Source: a phage. From it: DNA of 64,000 nt. The stretch lies in NCBI GenBank assembly GCA_036253495.1, contig GCA_036253495.1_4125.1; one strand, 5' to 3'. Each line of letters begins with the position of its first letter. The first letter of the stretch is position 1. The notes under the pieces are model-generated. The model had not been told where the DNA came from. It searched no databases and was given only the letters and a program-made list of their open reading frames with translations. The translations under genes and the position numbers were made by a program. This document shows positions 2-8,611 of this stretch, in pieces.

Positions 2-1597
2 ACAGGGTTTTATGATGGTGCACTTGGTAACTATGGTTCAATCTGTCAAACTTCTGATGGTTTTGTTTTCACTACCAAAGCAAGATGGTCATCCATGCCG
101 ACCTATGCAGTACAAACATACAAAGTTTCTGGTACACCTTATGATAGTTGGGTTGCTAAAACACGTACTGGTAGTAATTTAAAACGTGTAGAAGTAATGC
201 CAGTTTATGGCTCCCCTGTCGGTGAAAACTTAATAGGTGTTCGTTTCGTAGATAAACGTAAGATACTTGTTGCATGTTCTGGTACTGCTGATGGAATTTC
301 TTATGGTTATGATAGTACAGTTTTTACTGAAATAGGTGAGAATCCAACTTATAGTTATAAAAACTTGGAACAAAATACCACAATGAATGGTTTTGCACCA
401 TCAGGTAATAGACACTATTTAAGTACTGATTACAAATATGCAGGTATGGTAACATTGGTTGATGCCAATGGAAATGTCAGCACTTATGGATCTTCTTTAA
501 TAGAAGGTATCGATAAACCAGCTTATGGAAAATTCGACCCTGTTACAATGGACTTTAACAATGATAGATATGAAATTTCAGGAACTACATTATCAGGTAT
601 AGGTTATAATGCCGTTGCTAAAGCTGGATTGACTGGAATAACTGAACATAAAACTGTTTTTTATTATGTACCTGATACTACATATTCTAAATCTATTGCA
701 GTCACTTCTGCACTAAACGGTACTACCAACGTGTGTTATATTATTTTTTCCGAAATATCATGTAGTGCACTGGGTACAAGTGGTACTATAATTTTACGTG
801 GTATTAGTGTTGATACAGCAAGATATACATCAATCACGAATACATTCCAAATTTCACCAAATGAAATGATCAAACGTTGGGCTGGTATGACTGTTGCTAA
901 GTTTAGTGGTTTTAACTACTTAGGTGTGAACATTTTATATGGCATTGATACCCCAGGTTGGACTCGTTATCCTAACATGATTGCTAAAGTGAAAAATGGT
1001 ATTATTTCAAGTCAACGATATATGGAAACAACTTATATTTCAAACGCACAATTTGATATAGGTACAATTCCAGGGATTGGGTTTGGATATTACCAAATGA
1101 ACAAAAACGATTATCAAACTAAATCAGTTTTTGCTGTATGTGGTACTACTGAAGCAGATATGGATAAACTAATATCTGGTAATGAAACGATATCACAGTA
1201 CTTAGTTGTTGCTTCACAGGATGTGGCACAAGGGTTCAACGTGTACTTTTCACAAGAAGTACCAGTTTTCTTGGGTGGAAAGTTTGCAAAGATACCACCG
1301 ACTATGATAGACTTATCTACCATAAGTACTACACCAGATAATTCAACATTCTACATATATGCGGTTATGGATAGAGGTACATCTACAGCTTCGTATCAGA
1401 TATCACTATATCAATTATCAGAAACTATGACATCAACCTACATTGGTAAGATAGTAACTGATGCTAATGGTATTGCATCAATCGAGTCTGAAAAAGTGTC
1501 CAGATTCTTGCTATACCGCCCAAGTACCTACAATCGTGGTTCTGCTATCCCAGCTAGTTCTGGGTTACCATCACAATCTGGTACTCGTTGGAGTTAA
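2..1597 (+). CDS. putative tail fibre / receptor-binding protein, C-terminal part (5' end lies upstream of the window)
   Basis: Frame is open from position 2 with no in-frame stop before the listed ORF 95..1597; Gly/Thr/Ser/Asn/Tyr-rich fibre-like composition; followed by a hairpin terminator. Confidence 0.45.
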   Translation, partial: TGFYDGALGNYGSICQTSDGFVFTTKARWSSMPTYAVQTYKVSGTPYDSWVAKTRTGSNLKRVEVMPVYGSPVGENLIGVRFVDKRKILVACSGTADGISYGYDSTVFTEIGENPTYSYKNLEQNTTMNGFAPSGNRHYLSTDYKYAGMVTLVDANGNVSTYGSSLIEGIDKPAYGKFDPVTMDFNNDRYEISGTTLSGIGYNAVAKAGLTGITEHKTVFYYVPDTTYSKSIAVTSALNGTTNVCYIIFSEISCSALGTSGTIILRGISVDTARYTSITNTFQISPNEMIKRWAGMTVAKFSGFNYLGVNILYGIDTPGWTRYPNMIAKVKNGIISSQRYMETTYISNAQFDIGTIPGIGFGYYQMNKNDYQTKSVFAVCGTTEADMDKLISGNETISQYLVVASQDVAQGFNVYFSQEVPVFLGGKFAKIPPTMIDLSTISTTPDNSTFYIYAVMDRGTSTASYQISLYQLSETMTSTYIGKIVTDANGIASIESEKVSRFLLYRPSTYNRGSAIPASSGLPSQSGTRWS

Positions 1598-1604
1598 AAA
1601 AATT

Positions 1605-1635
1605 AAGCCTGTCTATTGACAGGCTTTTCTTTTAT
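1605..1635 (+). terminator. rho-independent terminator
   Basis: aagcctgtc-tatt-gacaggctt stem-loop followed by a T-rich run. Confidence 0.6.
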
Positions 1636-1643
1636 CCGTATAA
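1616..1643 (+). promoter_or_regulatory. sigma70-like promoter (TTGACA-16-TATAAT)
   Basis: ttgaca at 1616-1621 and tataat at 1638-1643, upstream of the paralog cluster. Confidence 0.45.
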
Positions 1644-1666
1644 TGCTAAAAAACTAGGAGGAAACT

Positions 1667-2227
1667 ATGGTACAATCACGTTTTAGACCACCGCTGTCAC
1701 CAGCACAGTTACAACGTTTAAAAGAAAAAGAGCAGCACTTTCAGAATACCCTAGTAGTTCGTTTGCTATGCAAAAGTGTAACTCTTAAAGATTTTGTGAA
1801 AACCGATAATGAACGTAAATCACTTATCGAACTTAAGTACAAGTTAAGTAAGCATAAACTATATGGATTACTAGCAGAATACACCCAAAATCCATTCAGT
1901 GATCGTTGGTCTATGGTTCAAAAAAAACTGTGGGGTGGTGATGAAGAATTCACACTACGTGATTTAAAAAATGCAATCATGTTTAAGGTCGATTATACAC
2001 CAGCAGGGATTGAACACAGAACCGAAGAAACTATCATTCAATCAAGAGATTTATCATGTGTTGTTTCTTCAAACTTCGGTGTTCATTATGATATGCTTGA
2101 TGACGATGAGTTAATGATCCTGTTCCATGTGATTATTGGTGCTGAAGATATTAAAGAAAAGTTATCACAAATTGAAGAAGAACAGCGTAAATTCAAAATC
2201 CAAAAGAGAATAACTGATTTATATTAA
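1667..2227 (+). CDS. hypothetical protein, tandem paralog family A copy 1
   Basis: ORF with AGGAGG RBS; shares K(T/S)D-x-(D/E)R and C-terminal LFH/coiled motifs with the next two ORFs. Confidence 0.6.
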   Translation: MVQSRFRPPLSPAQLQRLKEKEQHFQNTLVVRLLCKSVTLKDFVKTDNERKSLIELKYKLSKHKLYGLLAEYTQNPFSDRWSMVQKKLWGGDEEFTLRDLKNAIMFKVDYTPAGIEHRTEETIIQSRDLSCVVSSNFGVHYDMLDDDELMILFHVIIGAEDIKEKLSQIEEEQRKFKIQKRITDLY

Positions 2228-2236
2228 GAGGTTACT

Positions 2237-2737
2237 ATGTTTTTCAAAAAGAAAAATAATGATCACAAAAGAGAAAATGTAGAGTGGTGTACATTAATTC
2301 TTCCAGTACTGATGAAAAGCTATTCTTTAAAAGAAATTATCCGTACTGATGAAGATCGTAGAACTATACTTAAAATTAAAGAAATGTTAAGTTCTCATTC
2401 TCTAATGAAACTAATCACAGACCTAGTTAAAGAACCATACGGTGAACGTTGGTTATATGAACCAGTATTCATATATGGTAATCATATCAACCGTGTAAAA
2501 TTGTTTGATACCGAAACTAAGGTTGATTTTAATGCAGTAACATATTCATCTAAAGATTATGATGAAAAACATACATTTGTTTATATTAACGGAGATGCGA
2601 ATATTCTACCTAAACATGAACAAATGTTTTTGTTTCATTTACTCGTTGCACTTCGTGAGCTTGAAACAAAGTACAAGAAGTTAGAATACGAGCAGCATAA
2701 ACTTAATGAATTTAATAAATTAAAAGGATTATACTAA
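2237..2737 (+). CDS. hypothetical protein, tandem paralog family A copy 2
   Basis: Paralogous to 1667..2227 and 2737..3243 by shared motifs. Confidence 0.6.
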   Translation: MFFKKKNNDHKRENVEWCTLILPVLMKSYSLKEIIRTDEDRRTILKIKEMLSSHSLMKLITDLVKEPYGERWLYEPVFIYGNHINRVKLFDTETKVDFNAVTYSSKDYDEKHTFVYINGDANILPKHEQMFLFHLLVALRELETKYKKLEYEQHKLNEFNKLKGLY

Positions 2738-3243
2738 TGTTCTTCGGTAAACATAAAGTAAAAGATGATGGTATTCTTCAGTACTTAGTTGCGTTGATTT
2801 TAAACAAAAGTACTTTATTAGTACCTAATATTAAATCAGACAAAGATCGCAGAGAAATTATTCAAAACAAATATCTTCTTTCAAAATGTGATCCTGTTAT
2901 CTATGCATTTTGTAAGTACTGTTCAAAAAACTTGTTCAGTATTCATGTAGATTTTGAAAGACAAGAAAGCAGCACACGAAATTCTTGTTTTAAAGTGTAT
3001 ATGATTAATGATTTAAATCGTGGGAATCGAGGGTTCATGTTCTGGATGGACGGACGTGATATACGTGTGCGTATTAAAATGTCAGTTGGGTGGAAGGATT
3101 TTTCAACTTCTGTATCTGATTTTCTTGTACTTCACGCACTATATAACAGTATTACTAACGTGAAAGATATCGACAAGAAAATTCAGGAACAAAAAGAATT
3201 GGATGATGCAAAGAACGAATACTTACAACATTACAGGAGTTAA
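2737..3243 (+). CDS. hypothetical protein, tandem paralog family A copy 3
   Basis: Paralogous motifs; start overlaps the previous stop. Confidence 0.55.
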   Translation: MFFGKHKVKDDGILQYLVALILNKSTLLVPNIKSDKDRREIIQNKYLLSKCDPVIYAFCKYCSKNLFSIHVDFERQESSTRNSCFKVYMINDLNRGNRGFMFWMDGRDIRVRIKMSVGWKDFSTSVSDFLVLHALYNSITNVKDIDKKIQEQKELDDAKNEYLQHYRS

Positions 3244-3246
3244 TAT

Positions 3247-3648
3247 ATGGATCTTGATGATGTGTATAGCACCATAAGACAGATGGATTCGTATAAAAAA
3301 GTATATAGTGGTTACAAGAGTGATAAACAATTTTATGGAATCGGGGAGTATGATGTAATATCATTCGAATACGATGATACTGGTGAAAGTTCCATTAATA
3401 TTGTTTGTCCTCGTGACCGTGAAAATAACTTCATGTACGTTGAAATCAATAATGATGGTTTACACTTTACTAAAATATTAAATGGTGGCAAACAATCTAT
3501 TTCTCTGGATTTATCCGAAGAAGAAAAGTTCTTTCAAGAAGATACTATAATCAATCTAGGTTTTAGTTTATCAGAATACAAAGTTCTTCATAAAGATTTC
3601 ATGAAGTACTATAATGGGTTTCTTAAGGAGCTAACATTACATCTATGA
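3247..3648 (+). CDS. hypothetical protein
   Basis: ORF tightly packed with neighbours; 3' end overlaps the next start (ATGA). Confidence 0.5.
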   Translation: MDLDDVYSTIRQMDSYKKVYSGYKSDKQFYGIGEYDVISFEYDDTGESSINIVCPRDRENNFMYVEINNDGLHFTKILNGGKQSISLDLSEEEKFFQEDTIINLGFSLSEYKVLHKDFMKYYNGFLKELTLHL

Positions 3649-4886
3649 ATAATAACAAATTTCTTGAACAAACAATTGTGAAGCACTTAGCAGGTTCACA
3701 AGCGTATGGAACCAGTACACCTGAAAGTGATACGGATTATCGTGGTATTTTTCTTGCTAACAAAGAGTTCATTCTGACACCTTTTTATAATGTAAAAGAA
3801 GTTTCTGATTCAAGAGAAGAAGATACTAAATTCTATGAACTAAACCAGTACTTAAGACTATACACAGAGGCTAACCCAAATATCCTTGAATCACTATGGG
3901 TTGATCCTGAACACATCGTAGAAAGTACTGAAATCTATGATTATCTACGTACATTCAATCAACAATTACTTAGTTCTAAGATCGCATTCTCTTATACCGG
4001 TTATGCATATAATCAGGTTAAACGTATGTCCAATCACCACGGGTGGATGGATAAAGAGCGTATTGCTGAAAAACGTCTAAATGAAATCTTAGAAGATTTT
4101 CCTGTAGATGAAACTTTAGCATGGATGTATGAAAACTTCCCACACTATTTGGTAGAACGTTTAGATACTTCTAAACTACATCCATTTAATGCTAAGAAAA
4201 TAGATTTTGAAAAATACATGCGTGATACTTCATTGCAGTTAGTTTCGACTCATCCGTTGAAACAGTATCATTTTGTACGTTTAGTACATAATTACAGTAC
4301 TGATAAAGTACTAGACCGTGATTTCAACTTATTGGATTATAACAATGGGTACGAATTAATTCATTACGGTGAAAATATCTTTGGTGTTATTATCAATCCT
4401 AATGAAAGTACAATTAACGCTGATGGTTCTTTACGTTATTTCAACAAAGAACGCAGTACTGAAGAATTGAAAGTGCGACCTGAACTCATTGTTAAATTCA
4501 ATGAAAAAGAATACAGTGAGAACAGTGAGAACCGTAAAAGTTATCACAAATGGAAAGAGAATCGTAATGCTAAACGTGCAATTCTTGAATCCAAACACGG
4601 CTACGATTGCAAACATGCTATGCATACGATCAGACTTTTGAATACAGCCGAAGAAGCATTACAAAGCGGTATTATCCTTGTTAAACGTCCTGATGCTGAT
4701 ATGCTAATGGATATCCGCAACGGTAAATGGAAGTATGAAGAAGTCATGGATTATTTCAATGAAAAGGTTGACTATATCCGCAATGTGGTGTATCCTAAGT
4801 CAGTTCTACCAAAGAAACCAAACATTCAACTAGCTGCAAAAGTTCTAATCGATATTCGAGAAATGCAGTGGTATGGTAAAAAATAA
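3645..4886 (+). CDS. Pol-beta superfamily nucleotidyltransferase domain protein
   Basis: N-terminal G-S-x9-S-D-T-D motif (LAGSQAYGTSTPESDTDYRGIF), typical of the Pol-beta/MNT nucleotidyltransferase fold; 413 aa. Confidence 0.55.
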   Translation: MNNNKFLEQTIVKHLAGSQAYGTSTPESDTDYRGIFLANKEFILTPFYNVKEVSDSREEDTKFYELNQYLRLYTEANPNILESLWVDPEHIVESTEIYDYLRTFNQQLLSSKIAFSYTGYAYNQVKRMSNHHGWMDKERIAEKRLNEILEDFPVDETLAWMYENFPHYLVERLDTSKLHPFNAKKIDFEKYMRDTSLQLVSTHPLKQYHFVRLVHNYSTDKVLDRDFNLLDYNNGYELIHYGENIFGVIINPNESTINADGSLRYFNKERSTEELKVRPELIVKFNEKEYSENSENRKSYHKWKENRNAKRAILESKHGYDCKHAMHTIRLLNTAEEALQSGIILVKRPDADMLMDIRNGKWKYEEVMDYFNEKVDYIRNVVYPKSVLPKKPNIQLAAKVLIDIREMQWYGKK

Positions 4887-4895
4887 GAGGATTAT

Positions 4896-5321
4896 ATGCT
4901 GAATTCAACAATTATTGATGCACTACGTGTACTGAATCGCGAAGTTAGCCGTATCCATAAAAGTACTGATCGTTATAAAGTAATGCATGAAATTAAACTA
5001 GAATTAGAAGCTATCAATAAGGGTGAATGGTTCCTTGAACCAGAATACCGTACACGTGGACCAACTGACGTTGAGAAAGCAATTGCAAAATTCATTTCTG
5101 GACGTTATGGTGATGTATCAGAGGCAGATGTACTGATGAATTTACATTTAACCTCCTTAGAAATTGAAGAAAAATTCAAATTTGATTCACTGGACTGGGT
5201 AGAAATGATCATGGAACTTGAAGATGAATTTAAGGTTGAGATCGAAGATAAGTATGAATCTGGAGATACCAGAATCGTGCATCTCGTTGAACATGTACAA
5301 ACAATGATCGATAAACGCTAA
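4896..5321 (+). CDS. acyl-carrier-protein-like (PP-binding-like) domain protein
   Basis: C-terminal half carries FDSLDWVEMIMELEDEFKVEI, resembling the ACP DSL(D)xVElvMalEeeF motif with the Ser that is phosphopantetheinylated in ACPs. Confidence 0.45.
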   Translation: MLNSTIIDALRVLNREVSRIHKSTDRYKVMHEIKLELEAINKGEWFLEPEYRTRGPTDVEKAIAKFISGRYGDVSEADVLMNLHLTSLEIEEKFKFDSLDWVEMIMELEDEFKVEIEDKYESGDTRIVHLVEHVQTMIDKR

Positions 5322-5366
5322 TTTTAAGCACTCTAAATAATATCATCATCTATAGGAGATATTATT

Positions 5367-5741
5367 ATGAGTGTACTAGATATTATTGTTTCAAAAGTAC
5401 TGATACCGTTCTGGAAACCAATTGCGTTTGTTCTCCTGATGGCATCATGTACTTTTGGTGGCTGGAAGGCTAATACTTTTTATACTGGGTATAAAGAAAG
5501 TATTGAATTAAAAATAGAGAAGAAAGTAGATGCGGCTTTAAGTAAAATTGAAAGCCAAAATACCAAAAACTATGTAGAAACTAAACAGATAATGCAAAAT
5601 AATGCAAAGGTAATAGAAACTAAAGTACCAGTTATTATTGAGCGTGAAGTGTATAGAAATGTATGTTTAGATGAAGAAGGGGTAAAACTTTTGAATGATC
5701 TAAAACAAAATTCACTTGCAGCTAGAGAGAAATTTAAATGA
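5367..5741 (+). CDS. putative i-spanin (inner-membrane spanin subunit)
   Basis: N-terminal TM segment followed by a charged coiled-coil-like region; immediately precedes and overlaps a lipoprotein gene. Confidence 0.5.
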   Translation: MSVLDIIVSKVLIPFWKPIAFVLLMASCTFGGWKANTFYTGYKESIELKIEKKVDAALSKIESQNTKNYVETKQIMQNNAKVIETKVPVIIEREVYRNVCLDEEGVKLLNDLKQNSLAAREKFK

Positions 5742-6052
5742 AATACATATTAACATTCTTGATTACTTTTATGTTTATCACTGGGTGTTCTAATAAGGTT
5801 CCAGTTCAAGCGTCACCAATAATCACCCAGGAAATCTTATTAGAACGATGCGAAGAAGATACACCAATTCCTAAAAAAATTGTTGTTGACTCACATGGTA
5901 ATAGAGGATATGCTGGTGATGAAATTCTTAACGTTCTGACGCGTTGGGATTCCATGTACAATGAATGTGCACTGAGATATGATGCACTAATTGATACAAT
6001 TCGCAAACTCCAAGACCAAAATATTCGTGTTAACATAAAAGTTAAGGAATAG
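5738..6052 (+). CDS. putative o-spanin (outer-membrane lipoprotein spanin subunit)
   Basis: Signal peptide ending in lipobox FITGC; small periplasmic protein; 4-nt overlap with the upstream i-spanin-like ORF. Confidence 0.55.
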   Translation: MKYILTFLITFMFITGCSNKVPVQASPIITQEILLERCEEDTPIPKKIVVDSHGNRGYAGDEILNVLTRWDSMYNECALRYDALIDTIRKLQDQNIRVNIKVKE

Positions 6053-6053
6053 T

Positions 6054-6665
6054 ATGTCTAAATATCATGTTTATTATGTAACCAAATTGAGTTTACTAGA
6101 TGAACTCAATCATACTAGTACCAAAATGAAACGTTATACTTATAATGGTATTACTTTCAGATACTTTCCACAAAAAGTACTAACATTCGTTAAGAATTGT
6201 AAGTGCGTTGCTTGTGGCATCGAGGCTACAGAAGTTCGAATCGAACGTTCTAACTGTAGTGATCCGGTATATGGTAAACCGCATTTAAATGTGTATGCAG
6301 TATGTGGTCTTTATGAAGTTATGATGACTGTAGATCATAATCATCTTGCATCTAAAGGTGGTGCTGATTTGGAGTCAAACTTCAATACTATGTGTGCGAG
6401 ATGTAATCAGTTGCGTTCAAATAAAACTGAAACAGTTGATGAATTCCTTGAGAAAGTCAAAAGCCGAAATCTACTTGAAGAACATATGAATCGTTATTTC
6501 AATAAGATTGAGAAGGAAAGTAAACGTCCTACACCAGAAATGCTCGAAGAACGTAGATTGCGTCAAGAGCTATGGGATAACGATCATCTGTGGCATGTTC
6601 GTGAGTACGGGCGACACATGAAAGCATTAAAAAAGGCACAAAAGCTGTTGGATAAACATGAGTAA
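6054..6665 (+). CDS. HNH endonuclease (homing-endonuclease-like)
   Basis: CxxC...VDHNH...N...CxxCN motif set typical of HNH nucleases. Confidence 0.7.
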   Translation: MSKYHVYYVTKLSLLDELNHTSTKMKRYTYNGITFRYFPQKVLTFVKNCKCVACGIEATEVRIERSNCSDPVYGKPHLNVYAVCGLYEVMMTVDHNHLASKGGADLESNFNTMCARCNQLRSNKTETVDEFLEKVKSRNLLEEHMNRYFNKIEKESKRPTPEMLEERRLRQELWDNDHLWHVREYGRHMKALKKAQKLLDKHE

Positions 6666-6718: not shown

Positions 6719-7075
6719 ATGAAATCAAAAATCTTTTTACCACAGTTAATGTGGCATCTTGCAGAGTTAGATGAAGATGATGTGTATACTGACTATGGTA
6801 CATGGGATGACAGTACTGAAACCTTTGGTCCAGATGTGCAGTACAAAATCATTTACAATGAAAGTAAAGGGCATAGACGATTTACTGAAGAATTTGATCT
6901 TGTTTTTCTTGACATGAACGAGAACAAGTATTATCATTGTACGTATGAACGAGGTTTAACAGAATATCGACCACAACGACCATTCGAGTATGAAACGGAT
7001 GGTGTTAAGTGCAATGAAGTTTCTGTTACCAGAGAAGAAATTATCACTTATAGAACTTTGTGGAAATATGTGTAA
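6719..7075 (+). CDS. hypothetical protein
   Basis: ORF following the terminator; no recognisable motifs. Confidence 0.5.
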   Translation: MKSKIFLPQLMWHLAELDEDDVYTDYGTWDDSTETFGPDVQYKIIYNESKGHRRFTEEFDLVFLDMNENKYYHCTYERGLTEYRPQRPFEYETDGVKCNEVSVTREEIITYRTLWKYV

Positions 7076-7474
7076 TGCTTAAAGATTTAGATTTTTCAAA
7101 CTTAGAAATTGTTAGTGCTGTGAAAAATATCTCTGACATGGGAGACGAAAAGACAGTACTGTTAACTATTACATTTGTCAAAGAAGAAGATAGTTATTTA
7201 CATCTTACAGGTATTGAAGAACTAATTCATAAAACTAATCTACAAGATAATGGGAAGTTTATTAAGCTTCAGGCTTCCTATACGAAAAAAAACGTCAAAT
7301 TTTGTAGACCTAAATAGTGTAGTCAAGGTGGTATTCAATCACCCTGAACAAAAGTACAGAAATGTGTCACGCAATGAGACAGATGCCAGTACTCTACAGC
7401 TTCTTCAGGATATTGAGTTCATTGAAACAGTATTTGAACGAAGCAGCAAAGAATTGAAAAAAGTTTATATGTAA
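7075..7474 (+). CDS. hypothetical protein split across two frames at an A8 run (7285-7292)
   Basis: ORF 7060..7317 (probable ATG at 7075, TAATG overlap) and ORF 7250..7474 overlap in adjacent frames exactly at aaaaaaaa; one fewer A gives a single ~133-aa ORF. Confidence 0.35.
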
Positions 7475-7475
7475 T

Positions 7476-7504
7476 TGGGACAATACTTTATATTGTGCTA
7501 TAAT
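7476..7504 (+). promoter_or_regulatory. promoter with extended -10 (TGGGAC-17-TATAAT, TGcTATAAT)
   Basis: Same architecture as the sites at 18991 and 37855; lies directly upstream of an ORF-free region. Confidence 0.5.
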
Positions 7505-7510
7505 TATATT

Positions 7511-8050
7511 GTAATGGAAAATGTCAGTGGACGTTTTAACAACGGACAAGAAGAACCTACTTCTCTTGAAAATGTAAAGGATAGATGAGCCTTCCCACTG
7601 AGGCGATGAGCAAAAGAAACCCGTTAGTACCATCCAAGTGCATTCATACAAACGCGAAATAAGACACGGATCACACGGCGACACGGCTCAATAAAGAACT
7701 CCGATAAGCATACAGAGAGTTCCTCGATAGATGTATAAGGATCGCACCTTACCAGATTTGCTAAGGGAGTTTTACTTAAAACAAGCGGTCAATTTTTCTA
7801 CGGGAAAGTTGCACCCAAAATTTGAGTAAAACGAGTACTGAATTGATCGAATAGTTCCAGTACTTTAGTGCAGGGGATGAAAATACCTGCGACCGTTGCA
7901 TATGACTGCGATAGAGAGAAACAGAGCAACCCGCTTTCGTTCTCCAAAAATTGGACACCCTTGATCCGTCCAAAATATGGAGAAATTCGCAATTCGATAA
8001 ATTCCGATGCCATCAGCGTCAAAATCAAGAACCTTAATTGGTTCTTTTTT
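7511..8050 (+). ncRNA. candidate structured non-coding RNA (~540 nt), unclassified
   Basis: Bounded by the promoter at 7476-7504 and the terminator at 8027-8050; only short mutually overlapping ORFs on both strands; GC about 41-48% against a visibly AT-richer background; local hairpins such as gcagg-ggatgaaaata-cctgc. Confidence 0.3.
8027..8050 (+). terminator. rho-independent terminator
   Basis: aagaacc-ttaatt-ggttctt hairpin followed by TTTTTT. Confidence 0.5.
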
Positions 8051-8194
8051 AATATCATTCCCCTGCGGGGGGATGAAAATGTCCTCAACAAATCCCGTCA
8101 ATCTTTAAAAGTACAATACAATATTAATTAATATGAATGAGTGAGTTATCGTAGATAACGAAACGAATTCTTGAGTTACGAGAGAACGAAGTGA

Positions 8195-8611
8195 ATGAGT
8201 AACGCAACGAATATTAAAAATTCATCTGATTTAACCAAAGAATTGTTTAAAAAGTTTTTTGAGTATCAAATCAATGAAGAGCACGGAATTAAACAGAATT
8301 ACATAAGTACAATAAAAACTAATAATATCCGTACTGAAATCTATGATAGTGTAATTGAATTTATTAATGCATTGAGTACTGAAAGACCTATAGTAGTTTT
8401 GTTTTTTAAACGAGATTATCCAGTACAAGTCAACAGGAATGTTCATTTCATTACAGAAAATGATTTAAGTACTTACACAACGAGTTCTATTAGGAATTGT
8501 ATACTGATAGTATGTGATGACTCCGAGTATTTTAGTAAAGTTGTATGGGATAGAAGACGTAATTCAGTAATAAGAGATATGAATCCCGAATTTACATTTC
8601 TGATCAAATAA
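8195..8611 (+). CDS. hypothetical protein
   Basis: ORF; no motif recognised. Confidence 0.5.
   Translation: MSNATNIKNSSDLTKELFKKFFEYQINEEHGIKQNYISTIKTNNIRTEIYDSVIEFINALSTERPIVVLFFKRDYPVQVNRNVHFITENDLSTYTTSSIRNCILIVCDDSEYFSKVVWDRRRNSVIRDMNPEFTFLIK

What the first reader, a model, noticed from the sequence alone, without database searches (positions are those of the whole stretch)
7476..8194. Promoter-to-terminator bounded ORF-free locus: candidate large structured ncRNA
A strong extended -10 promoter (7476-7504) is followed by about 540 nt with only short, mutually overlapping ORFs on both strands, then a clean intrinsic terminator (8027-8050). GC is about 41-48% here against a visibly AT-richer background, as expected for structured RNA in an AT-rich genome. 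Local hairpins are present (gcagg-ggatgaaaata-cctgc at ~7869) and GGGGATGAAAAT recurs at 7873 and 8068. The size is in the range of the large ornate phage-associated RNAs (ROOL/GOLLD classes), but no class can be assigned by eye.
Basis: partly seen in the sequence, partly recalled or inferred. Interest (0 to 1): 0.65.

Follow-up and report, generated by a model that had tools for sequence, protein, structure and literature searches.

The report
New large structured RNA family, jumbophages
The ORF-free stretch is a real gene for a roughly 540-nucleotide, intricately folded non-coding RNA of a family not found in Rfam or in the searchable literature; every RaK2-like giant phage examined carries several copies (four in the one genome assembled here), and a few mobile islands in enterobacterial chromosomes carry one, but its function is unknown.

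Summary
Window 7476-8194 has a conserved promoter, about 540 nt with no conserved ORF, and an intrinsic terminator.

It is one of four paralogous copies in an A4-like Asteriusvirus genome. Homologues occur in all 72 RaK2-like jumbo-phage records hit, usually 3-5 places per genome, and in 90 metagenome and IMG/VR loci.

Full-length single copies also lie in integrative elements of Serratia, Silvania and E. coli chromosomes, next to integrase or CI-like repressor genes.

On 61 non-redundant copies, 17 helices including three pseudoknots are 89.9% paired (72% in shuffles, about 40% with slid partners). Of 84 pairs, 63 show compensatory changes. G-U pairs fix the RNA to the + strand.

No Rfam family matches, no ORF is conserved, and no paper describing it was found.

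The promoter belongs to the phage's TGGGACA/TGAAACG class, which also precedes DNA-replication genes.

An 11-nt repeat (AYC(A)NCGUCAR) occurs twice near the 3' end and changes in concert in every copy. This is unexplained.

Best reading: a portable, stand-alone, compactly folded RNA acting in trans. Rivals are an origin or primer RNA and a cis transcription-control element.

It looks like a new RNA class that can be studied in E. coli.

The parts
7476..7504 (+). Promoter: -35-like box TGGGACA (7476-7482), 16-nt spacer, extended -10 TGCTATAAT (7496-7504)
   Evidence: Found by the consensus scan. It is conserved in front of all aligned copies. The class TG[AG][AG]AC[AG]-N15-17-TA[TC]AAT occurs 20 times in the genome against 1.4 in shuffles, including before replication genes. 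It matches the 'divergent RpoD-like' TGAAACG promoter described for CBB and GAP32 (PMC5259590).
7511..8052 (+). Predicted primary transcript, about 540 nt, from about 7 nt after the -10 to the U-run of the terminator. Both ends are inferred, not mapped.
   Evidence: Based on promoter and terminator positions. Folding z-score is -4.32 on the + strand and -1.77 on the - strand. G-U-rich covarying pairs fix the strand.
7524..7751 (+). 5' domain. H1 7524-7530/7595-7601. Its 3' strand lies in the loop of hairpin H3 7589-7591/7602-7604, giving a pseudoknot. H2 7557-7567/7577-7584 closes the conserved 9-nt loop GAAAAUGUA (7568-7576). AGAUGAG lies at 7583-7589. H4 7607-7611/7686-7690. GAAACCCGU lies at 7616-7624. 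H5 7621-7624/7675-7678. H6 7696-7701/7717-7722. H7 7736-7740/7747-7751.
   Evidence: Helices 1-8 are 74-93% paired and most pairs show compensatory changes. Coordinates were mapped.
7762..7769 (+). Near-invariant single-stranded motif UAAGGGAG
   Evidence: A259, A260 and G261-263 are invariant or nearly so across 61 copies. In the assembled genome, CTAAGGGAG occurs only at the four loci.
7770..7833 (+). Variable insertion arm, absent in some genera, closed by GUUUUAC/GUAAAAC
   Evidence: Alignments. The closing pairs covary in the L-INS-i alignment.
7834..7998 (+). 3' core domain, the most conserved part. Hairpin Pb 7834-7840/7858-7864 has a loop (7846-7852) that pairs with 7992-7998 (Pa, pseudoknot). 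Ph 7869-7872/7888-7891. Pd 7907-7911/7987-7991. Pc 7914-7918/7934-7938 has a loop GCAAC (7926-7930) that pairs with GUUGC 7895-7899 (Pg, pseudoknot). Pe 7941-7943/7981-7983.
   Evidence: Helices 9-15. Pa is 98.1% paired, Pg 100%, Pd 98.7% and Pc 100%, with 3-6 compensatory pairs each. This domain is retained even in the divergent metagenomic subgroup.
8006..8022 (+). Hairpin GAUGC-CAUCA-GCGUC plus AA. Its loop and 3' half (8011-8022) form copy 1 of the 11-nt repeat AYC(A)NCGUCAR.
8027..8052 (+). Intrinsic terminator (stem-loop 8027-8046, then U-run). It is optional in the family.
   Evidence: Found. Helix 16 is 92.5% paired with 5 of 6 pairs compensatory. It is absent from paralogues p3 and p4.
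8056..8101 (+). Conserved 3' block: C/G hairpin CCCC-UGC-GGGG (8060-8070), GGAUGAAAAUG, CCUCAAC, and copy 2 of the repeat (8090-8101, AAAUCCCGUCAA)
   Evidence: It is conserved in all copies, with or without the terminator. GGGGGGATGAAA (one mismatch allowed) and CAAATCYCGTCA occur in the genome only at the four loci, plus one unrelated one-mismatch hit for the first word. The two repeat copies match each other in every family member.
8102..8194 (+). Less conserved tail up to the next gene: an AT-rich stretch with a TAtaAT-like box, the word GAACGAA..GUG, and one or two hairpins whose stems differ between copies
   Evidence: Alignment (columns 841-1010). The structure was not analysed statistically.

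Best explanation
Window 7476-8194 is a stand-alone gene for a roughly 540-nt, highly structured non-coding RNA. It belongs to a family I could not find described anywhere.

**Shown:**
- It is conserved at 65-80% nucleotide identity across all RaK2-like jumbo phages hit.
- It has four copies in the A4-like genome.
- It has no conserved ORF.
- It folds on the + strand into two domains with at least 17 covarying helices and three pseudoknots, in which hairpin loops pair with distant strands.
- It carries long invariant single-stranded blocks.
- It has its own promoter, of the class that also drives the phage's replication genes.
- It ends in an intrinsic terminator in some paralogues, and runs directly into a conserved 3' block in others.
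- The whole module (promoter, RNA and 3' block) also occurs as a single copy in integrative elements of Serratia, Silvania and E. coli chromosomes.

**Inferred:**
- The host RNA polymerase transcribes it during the early-to-middle, replication phase, possibly with a phage factor reading the unusual -35 box.
- The RNA folds into a compact tertiary structure. GAAA tetraloops on the variable 5' arm and the invariant loops suggest tertiary contacts.
- It acts in trans as an RNA or RNA-protein particle that a mobile element carries as a self-contained module, in the manner of ROOL and GOLLD RNAs.
- Its role is probably to manipulate the host or competing mobile elements, not to serve one neighbouring gene.

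The biochemical activity is unknown.
For: **Family and copy number**
- blastn finds 72 phage records, all RaK2-like, with typically 3-5 places each.
- There are exactly four hits in the assembled A4-like genome, with E from 1e-100 to 1e-113 and nothing else below E=10.
- A core pattern finds 52 metagenome and 38 IMG/VR loci. Most of the long contigs are 345-380 kb.

**Structure**
- 89.9% of cells are paired, against 72.0% in shuffles and 37-46% with slid partners.
- 63 of 84 pairs are compensatory, involving 859 cells, and 0 of 500 shuffles reach any of the five measures.
- The top mutual-information pairs are Watson-Crick switches.
- G-U pairs (591-612 GU in 41 copies; 540-563 UG in 50) fix the strand.
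- Folding z-score is -4.32 on the + strand.

**Not coding**
- The longest ORF frame is stop-free in only 9 of 61 copies.
- Indel lengths are not multiples of three in 348 cases and are in 96.
- No Pfam or PHROG family matches.

**Not a known RNA**
- Rfam gives nothing at gathering threshold, and the best E-value is 0.13 at half the gathering score.
- Eighteen other family members also give nothing.
- RefSeq leaves the E. coli copy unannotated.

**Portable module, which favours trans action**
- Flanking genes differ between genera.
- One paralogue type faces convergent genes and has no downstream gene to regulate.
- Full-length copies (E from 1e-89 to 1e-112) lie in bacterial integrative elements with serine or tyrosine integrases, CI-like repressors, or a candidate defence system. 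They keep the same promoter type and 3' block.
Against: - There is no expression data for any member. The transcript ends are inferred from sequence signals only.
- Several syntenic paralogues have been kept per genome over long times: the p3-type clade spans several genera, and p2 and p4 keep their neighbours across genera. This would fit a position-dependent (cis) role at least as well as a redundant trans role.
- The promoter class is shared with replication genes, and there is a G-run and AT-rich tail after the RNA. These fit an origin-primer reading.
- The conserved block lies beyond the terminator, and the concerted 11-nt repeat is not explained by a simple trans-acting RNA.
- No partner protein or target is identified.
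Confidence: 0.55

Rival explanations
1. **Origin-of-replication primer RNA.** Each locus would be a replication origin. A structured transcript from a replication-phase promoter would run into the C/G-rich block and AT-rich tail and form a persistent R-loop. After processing, the R-loop would prime leading-strand synthesis by the T4-like replisome. The analogies are T4 oriF/oriG (middle-promoter R-loops) and ColE1 RNA II (a 550-nt folded primer from a sigma-70 promoter). Chromosomal islands carrying one copy would be satellites that borrow the helper phage's origin.
For: - Four dispersed, same-strand copies lie at about 65, 126, 206 and 321 kb of a 355-kb genome.
- p2 and p4 keep conserved synteny across genera.
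- The promoter class is shared with the genes for DNA polymerase, SSB, primase, topoisomerase and exonuclease.
- A conserved CCCC/GGGGGG element and an AT-rich tail follow the RNA.
- The phage encodes RNase H and a T4-type replisome.
- Small integrative islands carry a single copy.
- The knowledge of T4 and ColE1 is mine, not tested here.
Against: - An intrinsic terminator sits between the RNA body and the G-run in two paralogue types, which would stop most primers short.
- Three pseudoknots and long invariant loops are more than known primer RNAs need.
- Copies lie beside int and cI in ordinary-looking temperate elements, where an origin for a T4-like replisome is not expected.
- Cumulative GC skew follows gene orientation and gives no origin signal.
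Confidence: 0.17
2. **Cis-acting transcription-control element.** The structured RNA and its two matched repeats would decide whether polymerase stops at the terminator or reads on into downstream or convergent genes. The logic would resemble the immunity RNAs of P4 (CI RNA with seqA/seqC) and P1/P7 (C4 RNA with repeated targets), where repeats and their partner change together and set specificity.
For: - The two repeat copies flank the terminator and the C/G hairpin and change in concert: Y is UU in 35 copies and CC in 24; R is AA in 29 and GG in 28; CUUCAAG, ACGAAG or CGACAA appear at both sites in particular lineages.
- Both repeats follow a GAYGA-like strand they can pair with.
- p3-type copies begin with a hairpin plus U-run right after the -10, which looks like an attenuator.
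- In bacterial elements the RNA always points at a convergent gene, often cI.
Against: - The p2-type copy has no co-oriented downstream gene yet keeps everything.
- No longer complementary partner for the 11-mer was found. Complementarity is only 5-6 nt.
- About 450 nt of conserved pseudoknotted RNA is far more than known attenuators or immunity RNAs use.
- Downstream genes are unrelated between paralogues.
Confidence: 0.15
3. **Selfish or mobile RNA element.** This would be a ribozyme-like or guide-like RNA that spreads on its own, as HEARO/omega RNAs or ORF-less introns do. The matched repeats would be cleavage-ligation or recombination junctions.
For: - It is multi-copy.
- It is present in unrelated mobile elements: virulent jumbo phages, int-cI prophage-like elements, and a defence island.
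- An HNH endonuclease gene lies 0.8 kb upstream of p1 in Asteriusvirus.
- The repeats are kept identical within each copy.
Against: - No nuclease, reverse transcriptase or transposase is consistently adjacent.
- The other three paralogues have no HNH neighbour.
- Copies are old and syntenic rather than recently transposed, with 64-79% identity within one genome.
- No copy lacks the interval between the repeats.
- Rfam intron, HEARO and ribozyme models are silent.
Confidence: 0.06
4. **Decayed or unrecognised protein-coding gene**, or a purely DNA-level element (protein-binding sites) with no RNA function.
For: - ORFs of 87-97 aa exist in this copy.
- The GenBank record of A4 and some other records annotate short hypothetical proteins here.
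Against: - Reading frames are not conserved and indels break every frame.
- No protein family matches.
- Variation follows base-pairing, not codons, and G-U pairs give a strand-specific signal that DNA-level constraints would not produce.
Confidence: 0.02

Closest known systems
ROOL and GOLLD RNAs (large ornate RNAs of phages and prophages, function unknown, RNA-only cages by cryo-EM; PMC12286853)
   Same: Size range is 450-600 nt. They are carried by phages and prophages as stand-alone genes. They have many covarying helices with pseudoknots, long invariant loops, no protein partner encoded alongside, and unknown function.
   Different: No sequence or structure match to the Rfam models. The hosts are Enterobacterales and their jumbo myoviruses, not Firmicutes, rumen or lake organisms. 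There are several diverged paralogues per genome. The element is not next to tRNA genes (one search finds none in the window). It carries a matched 11-nt repeat and a conserved block after the terminator. Oligomerisation was not tested.
ColE1 RNA II and T4 oriF/oriG origin transcripts
   Same: A folded transcript of about 550 nt from a host-type promoter, or from a replication-phase promoter as in T4. A G-rich element and AT-rich DNA lie at its end. There are several dispersed loci per genome, as with T4 origins.
   Different: No evidence of priming. A terminator lies before the G-run in two paralogue types. The fold is much more elaborate. Copies occur beside int and cI in temperate elements. 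The comparison rests on my own knowledge of these systems.
P4 CI RNA (seqA/seqB/seqC) and P1/P7 C4 antisense immunity RNAs
   Same: Repeated short sequences in one transcript change together between lineages. The location is near the immunity or integration end of temperate elements.
   Different: Those RNAs are 70-80 nt, with 15-20-nt complementarities to a defined partner. Here the RNA is about 500 nt and no complementary partner beyond 5-6 nt was found. The comparison rests on my own knowledge.
PA5oct 'putative lncRNA' ncRNA002 and ncRNA004 (RNA-seq-defined, 451 and 619 nt; PMC7318152)
   Same: Large unannotated transcripts of a jumbo phage related to the RaK2 group, with four per genome.
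   Different: No detectable homology to this family, using an nhmmer profile with all filters off.
HEARO / IscB omega RNA, group I and group II introns, RNase P RNA, tmRNA
   Same: Large pseudoknotted RNAs. Some are multi-copy and associated with mobile elements.
   Different: None of their Rfam models scores at E<=10 on this locus or E<=0.1 on 18 relatives. ARAGORN finds no tmRNA. There is no adjacent IscB, TnpB or reverse transcriptase, and no interrupted host gene.

Membership tests
Structured non-coding RNA gene (general) | Base pairs maintained by compensatory substitutions beyond phylogenetic and compositional controls | tested here: met
   89.9% paired against 72.0% in shuffles and 37-46% with slid partners. 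63 of 84 pairs are compensatory and 0 of 500 shuffles reach the observed values.
Structured non-coding RNA gene (general) | No conserved reading frame | tested here: met
   a frame is open in 9 of 61 copies, and indels are mostly not multiples of three; no protein family matches.
Structured non-coding RNA gene (general) | A discrete, stable transcript with defined ends | not testable with these tools
   Only the promoter and terminator signals are available. No RNA-seq exists for any RaK2-like phage in the searchable literature.
ROOL (RF03087) / GOLLD (RF01998) / OLE (RF01071) | Match to the family covariance model | tested here: not met
   No hit at gathering threshold in the 64-kb window. 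None at E<=10 in 7300-8300. None at E<=0.1 in 18 other members.
ROOL / GOLLD | Homo-oligomeric RNA-only assembly | not testable with these tools
   Needs native gels or cryo-EM.
Group I / group II introns, HYER-like ribozymes | Match to intron core models; interruption of a host gene or presence of a domain V hairpin | tested here: not met
   No Rfam hit. The element has its own promoter and lies between complete genes.
HEARO / omega RNA, retron msr-msd, CRISPR array | Adjacent IscB/TnpB, reverse transcriptase or cas genes; model match; repeat-spacer array | tested here: not met
   No such neighbour in phage or bacterial contexts. There are only sub-threshold CRISPR-DR hits of 18-23 bits, against a gathering score of 39-40, on the - strand of the C/G hairpin.
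RNase P RNA / tmRNA / 6S / SRP RNA | Model match or ARAGORN call | tested here: not met
Intrinsic (Rho-independent) terminator | GC-containing stem-loop followed by a U-run, with the stem maintained in relatives | tested here: met
   (8027-8046 plus T-run). Helix 16. It is present in only about 23 of 61 copies.
RaK2-group 'divergent RpoD-like' promoter (TGAAACG -35, classic -10; PMC5259590) | TG(G/A)(G/A)AC(A/G) box 15-17 nt upstream of TATAAT | tested here: met
   20 sites against 1.4 expected, including three of the four ncRNA copies. The fourth has CAGGACA.
Replication origin with primer RNA (T4 oriF/G, ColE1) | Initiation of DNA synthesis at the locus; persistent RNA-DNA hybrid | not testable with these tools
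   There are only circumstantial features. GC skew is uninformative.

The most novel reading that the evidence does not exclude
The RNA would be a new class of large ribozyme or RNA-only machine that mobile elements of Enterobacterales exchange. Jumbo phages keep four specialised versions. Prophage-like elements and defence-carrying islands keep one, possibly to interfere with those same phages.

In this reading, the two matched 11-nt repeats mark sites that the RNA itself, or a partner enzyme such as the phage RNA ligase and kinase, cuts and rejoins. That would give an RNA-level excision or switch whose specificity is written in each copy. It would be a phage-versus-island conflict fought with a structured RNA.
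Probability: 0.12. Interest if true: 0.95.

Novelty: categorically new. Interest (0 to 1): 0.8.

Why it matters
Large, intricately folded bacterial and phage RNAs such as OLE, GOLLD, ROOL, raiA and HEARO are rare. Each one solved so far has revealed unexpected biochemistry.

This family is as complex as those, with at least 17 helices, three pseudoknots and long invariant loops. Unlike most of them, it lives in cultured E. coli, Klebsiella, Salmonella and Erwinia phages and in at least two E. coli chromosomes. Genetics, RNA-seq, probing and cryo-EM are therefore immediately feasible.

The family also fills the largest unannotated gaps of a group of therapy-relevant jumbo phages. Genome records annotate spurious 'hypothetical proteins' in these gaps.

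Three features give concrete handles on what it does:
- its co-regulation with replication genes;
- its presence in both virulent phages and integrative or defence islands;
- the concerted evolution of its internal repeat.

Tried and rejected
1. **Known RNA families.** Rfam at gathering threshold on the window, at E<=10 on the locus, and at E<=0.1 on 18 relatives gave only noise: Atu_Ti4 at 21 bits, CRISPR-DR at 18-23 bits, and IRES_Bip outside the element. ARAGORN found nothing.
2. **Coding or pseudogene.** Rejected.
3. **The 12-mer GGGGATGAAAAT as a functional repeat.** Rejected, because the 7873 copy is a variable loop.
4. **The 3' block as a general phage promoter.** Rejected, because its words occur only at the four loci.
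5. **Homology with the RNA-seq-defined lncRNAs of phage PA5oct.** None found.
6. **A first, stricter IMG/VR pattern** found only RaK2 itself. A looser pattern worked.
7. **A third sequence complementary to the 11-nt repeat.** Column-wise and per-sequence scans gave only the short GAYGA strands and the invariant GAUGAG word, which does not covary.
8. **Pairing of CCCGUUAG with CUAAGGG (RNase-P-P4-like idea) and hammerhead-like reading of CGAAA...AGAUGAG.** Both were dropped on inspection of the alignments: there is no covariation and the spacing is wrong.
9. **Cumulative GC skew as an origin signal.** Uninformative.
10. **Plasmid collection.** No match.
11. **Literature searches for a prior description.** Nothing found.
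12. **A covariance model was not built.** The tool is limited to 400 columns, and nhmmer already separated members cleanly.
Full report
**1. What the window is**

The region 7300-8300 is 99.9% identical to Escherichia phage A4 (ON286972.1, Asteriusvirus, 355.5 kb), a RaK2-like jumbo myovirus. The window is a close relative of A4, not A4 itself. It is identical over 7286-8283, has scattered differences elsewhere, and diverges strongly in the tail-fibre genes at 1300-4919.

**2. Checking the observation**

- The stretch 7475-8194 holds only short, overlapping ORFs on both strands, the longest being 97 aa.
- The scan finds an extended -10 promoter at 7475/7477-7504 and a terminator-like hairpin at 8027-8046 followed by a T-run.
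- GC rises to 0.39-0.43, against 0.27-0.36 in the flanks.
- The + strand folds better than shuffled sequence (z = -4.32, 0 of 100 shuffles). The - strand gives z = -1.77.
- The 12-mer GGGGATGAAAAT does occur twice. The copy at 7873 is the loop of a hairpin whose loop sequence is not conserved in relatives.

**3. It is a family, with several copies per genome**

A distant blastn of the locus hits 72 phage records, all RaK2-like jumbo phages. They include Asteriusvirus, Eneladusvirus, Mimasvirus, Alcyoneusvirus and Munch/7t3-like phages, with hosts Escherichia, Salmonella, Klebsiella, Cronobacter, Yersinia, Erwinia, Serratia, Pectobacterium and Xanthomonas. Each record usually has 3-5 places.

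In the A4-like genome there are exactly four copies, all on the + strand, each filling a 650-900-bp annotation gap:
- p1 is this finding (A4 125.7-126.4 kb).
- p2 lies at 205.4-206.4 kb, between the endonuclease VII and baseplate-hub genes.
- p3 lies at 65.1-65.8 kb.
- p4 lies at 320.9-321.6 kb, after a sigma-70-family gene.

An nhmmer profile gives four hits with E from 1e-100 to 1e-113 and nothing else below E=10.

Flanking genes differ between genera, although p2 and p4 keep their neighbours in Erwinia and Salmonella phages and in RaK2. An exact degenerate pattern from the core found 52 metagenome and 38 IMG/VR loci. Most of the long contigs are 345-380 kb, with several hits each. After clustering at 96% identity, 61 full-length copies remain.

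In a neighbour-joining tree the p3-type copies of four genera group together. A4 p1 and p2 are sisters at 79% identity, and other within-genome pairs are 64-73% identical. At least part of the paralogy is therefore older than the genera.

**4. It is an RNA, not a protein gene or a DNA site**

On a structure-blind MAFFT alignment of the 61 copies (A3) I tested 17 helices (84 pairs). They were chosen from covariation scans.

| Measure | Observed | Shuffles | Slid partners |
|---|---|---|---|
| Cells paired | 89.9% | 72.0 ± 0.4% | 37-46% |
| Covariation score | 0.452 | 0.171 | not quoted here |

- 63 of the 84 pairs carry changes on both sides, involving 859 cells.
- No shuffle out of 500 reaches any of the five measures.
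- The helices were picked on related alignments of the same sequences, which inflates the contrast somewhat. The margin is nevertheless large, and the highest mutual-information column pairs in an unbiased scan are almost all Watson-Crick switches, for example AU 37 / GC 15 / CG 6 / UA 3.
- Pairs that are mostly G-U (591-612; 540-563) would be A·C on the other strand, so the structure belongs to the + strand.
- No reading frame is conserved. The frame of the 87-aa ORF is stop-free in 9 of 61 copies. Indels relative to this copy are not multiples of three in 348 cases and are in 96.
- The four longest ORFs match no Pfam or PHROG family.
- The short 'hypothetical proteins' annotated here in several GenBank records are therefore probably spurious.

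**5. Anatomy in window coordinates**

- **Promoter, 7476-7504.**
- **5' domain.**
  - Helix 7524-7530/7595-7601 has its 3' strand in the loop of a small hairpin (7589-7591/7602-7604), forming a pseudoknot.
  - A hairpin closes the conserved loop GAAAAUGUA (7568-7576). It is followed by the nearly invariant AGAUGAG.
  - Helices 7607-7611/7686-7690 and 7621-7624/7675-7678 enclose a variable arm.
  - Two further hairpins lie at 7696-7722 and 7736-7751.
- **The near-invariant word UAAGGGAG, 7762-7769.**
- **A variable arm, 7770-7833.**
- **3' core, 7834-7998, the most conserved part.**
  - The loop of hairpin 7834-7840/7858-7864 pairs with 7992-7998 (98% paired, 6 of 7 pairs compensatory).
  - That pairing stacks on 7907-7911/7987-7991.
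  - Inside lies hairpin 7914-7918/7934-7938. Its loop GCAAC pairs back to GUUGC at 7895-7899 (100% paired; paralogue p4 has GUCAU/AUGAC).
  - A divergent metagenomic subgroup of seven copies keeps this core while its 5' half is barely alignable.
- **3' end.** This comprises hairpin 8006-8020, the terminator at 8027-8052, and a conserved block at 8056-8101 (CCCC-UGC-GGGG, GGAUGAAAAUG, CCUCAAC, AAAUCCCGUCAA).
  - Paralogues p3 and p4 and their relatives lack the terminator, and the RNA body runs straight into this block.
  - The block's words occur nowhere else in the genome, so it belongs to the unit.
- **GAAA tetraloops.** The variable 5' arm often ends in one, which hints at tertiary docking. 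This was not tested.

**6. The promoter class**

The -35-like box is TGGGACA here, TGAGACA, TGGGACA and CAGGACA in the other A4 copies, and TGAAACG or TGGAACR in other genera. The -10 is an extended TGnTATAAT.

The pattern TG[AG][AG]AC[AG]-N15-17-TA[TC]AAT occurs 20 times in the genome against 1.4 in shuffles. Nineteen of the 20 are on the + strand. By position (annotation), they precede the genes for the gp55-like late sigma factor, the DNA polymerase region, the ssDNA-binding protein, primase, an exonuclease and topoisomerase II.

This is the 'divergent RpoD-like promoter' (TGAAACG plus a classic -10) reported for CBB and GAP32. There, 11 of 18 examples lie upstream of a block of ORFs that includes many DNA-synthesis genes (PMC5259590). 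The RNAs are therefore probably made together with the replication genes. This is an inference.

**7. An unexplained feature: a repeat that changes in concert**

The loop and 3' strand of hairpin 8006-8020 plus two bases (CAUCAGCGUCAA) reappear at the end of the 3' block (AAAUCCCGUCAA). The consensus is A-Y-C-(A)-N-C-G-U-C-A-R.

Across the 61 copies:
- Y is the same at both sites in 59 of 60 (UU 35, CC 24).
- R is the same at both sites in 57 of 60 (AA 29, GG 28).
- All four Y/R combinations exist.
- Y differs between paralogues of one genome (A4 p3 has C, the others U).

Whole-motif changes are also matched:
- CUUCAAG at both sites in the RaK2 group.
- ACGAAG at both sites in the divergent subgroup.
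- CGACAA at both sites in Serratia sp. 2723, while its 86%-identical relative in S. fonticola has CGUCAA at both.

Each copy follows a GAYGA-like strand with which CGUC can pair. I found no longer partner complementary to the 11-mer. Identity kept within each molecule suggests that the two sites compete for one partner, or are processed or joined by the same specificity. I cannot tell which.

**8. The family is not confined to jumbo phages**

Scanning one genome per bacterial species found four records with full-length members (nhmmer E from 1e-89 to 1e-96). A blastn of complete E. coli genomes found two of 5,426. The copy examined, in strain LR-29-1, is full-length (E = 4e-112).

| Record | Context |
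|---|---|
| Serratia sp. 2723 | chromosomal genes, then large serine recombinase, then RNA |
| Silvania hatchlandensis | CI-like repressor, then RNA and large serine recombinase on the other strand |
| Metagenome contig L073 | CI-like repressor, RNA, tyrosine integrase, then chromosomal corC/ytfJ/cysQ/cpdB |
| Enterobacteriaceae MAG | thiD/thiM, RNA, CI-like repressor |
| S. fonticola | serine recombinase and two ParB-like genes, RNA, then rof/tilS |
| E. coli LR-29-1 | island of about 10 kb beside ffs: IS3-disrupted integrase, RNA in a 1.4-kb unannotated gap, candidate defence system PDC-M45 (dual-OB, DUF488; a DUF4326 gene adjacent), small serine recombinase |

All these copies keep the promoter type, the core, the 3' block and the matched repeats. 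In the five bacterial loci other than E. coli LR-29-1, the RNA points at a convergent gene. In LR-29-1 the next gene downstream is co-oriented. The module therefore moves between unrelated mobile elements as a self-contained unit.

**9. What it is not**

No Rfam 15 family matches:
- in the window at gathering threshold;
- at E<=10 in 7300-8300, where the best is 21 bits against a gathering score of 40;
- at E<=0.1 in 18 other members.

ARAGORN finds no tRNA or tmRNA in the window. The RNA-seq-defined lncRNAs of the related phage PA5oct (PMC7318152) show no homology. Six literature searches, and checks of two jumbo-phage reviews and the CBB paper, found no description of these loci.

**10. Mechanism**

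*Shown:* a promoter-equipped, non-coding, + strand, multi-pseudoknotted RNA family, multi-copy in jumbo phages and single-copy in integrative elements.

*Inferred:* transcription in the replication phase; two isoforms where a terminator is present, one terminated at about 8052 and one read through into the 3' block; and a compact tertiary fold.

*Best guess (about 0.55):* it acts in trans as an RNA or RNA-protein particle that mobile elements carry to manipulate the host or rival elements. The reasons are:
- the module is portable;
- its neighbours are unrelated;
- one paralogue type has no downstream gene;
- its complexity matches the ornate RNAs rather than leaders or primers.

*Rivals:*
- An origin or primer RNA (about 0.17). 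This is favoured by the dispersed syntenic copies, the replication-type promoter and the G-run with AT-rich tail. The terminator and the int-cI contexts count against it.
- A cis transcription switch with P4- or P1-like repeat logic (about 0.15). This is favoured by the concerted repeats flanking the terminator, by the attenuator-like hairpin at the 5' end of p3-type copies, and by the convergent arrangement. The size of the RNA and the gene-less p2 context count against it.
- A selfish ribozyme-like element (about 0.06).
- Coding or DNA-only readings (about 0.02).

That the locus encodes a functional structured RNA at all I put at about 0.9.

**11. Verdict**

This looks like a new class of large structured RNA. 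It is well supported by comparative evidence, is of unknown function, and can be studied in E. coli phages and strains.

Noticed in passing
window 7060-7474 (A-run at 7283-7291): Compared with phage A4, the window has one extra A at 7285. This splits the homologue of A4_510 / 121Q_515 ('structural protein', 132 aa) into two overlapping ORFs, 7060-7317 and 7250-7474. It could be a sequencing error, a real frameshift, or slippage-prone expression.
   Followed up: partly
window ~18991 and ~37855 (A4 137194 and 156058): Two more promoters of the TGGGACA-N16-TGATATAAT class lie in the window. It is the same class that drives the ncRNA and the replication genes.
   Followed up: no
window 8011-8022 and 8090-8101; all family members: An 11-nt repeat AYC(A)NCGUCAR is kept identical between its two sites within every copy while varying between copies and lineages. 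There is even a change between two 86%-identical Serratia copies (CGACAA against CGUCAA at both sites). No complementary third partner was found.
   Followed up: partly
L011:16100-16140 (A4 p3), L018:414-443 (GAP32), L023:413-442 (Munch): p3-type copies begin, directly after the -10 box, with a strong hairpin followed by 6-10 U. It is annotated as a terminator in two GenBank records. It could be an attenuator, a 5' stabiliser, or the upstream operon's terminator overlapping the promoter.
   Followed up: no
L010:4139-6138 (A4 4139-6138, outside the window): A 2-kb annotation gap contains another promoter of the same class at 4715. This may be a further non-coding transcript. It is not a member of this family by nhmmer.
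   Followed up: no
L014:971-1247 (A4 230971-231247, outside the window): The large terminase gene is annotated in two pieces separated by 276 bp, which could mark an intron or other insertion.
   Followed up: no
L121:2958-13302 (E. coli LR-29-1, beside ffs): An island of about 10 kb carries a full-length copy of the RNA, an IS3-disrupted integrase, a small serine recombinase and the candidate defence system PDC-M45 (dual-OB and DUF488; a DUF4326 gene is adjacent). Phage A4 also encodes a DUF4326 protein (A4_492).
   Followed up: partly
window 6054-6665: A free-standing HNH endonuclease gene lies 0.8 kb upstream of this copy in Asteriusvirus. The other three paralogues have no such neighbour.
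   Followed up: partly
window 1300-4919: The tail-fibre or tail-protein region is strongly divergent from phage A4, while the rest of the compared 13 kb is nearly identical. This looks like a host-range module exchange.
   Followed up: no
L116:~960-1010 (PA5oct ncRNA004 3' end): The RNA ends with CCUUCCC-AAAC-GGGGAGG-AAAUC, which superficially resembles the CCCC-UGC-GGGGGG-AUGAAAAU block of this family. There is no homology by nhmmer, so it is probably just a terminator-like hairpin.
   Followed up: no
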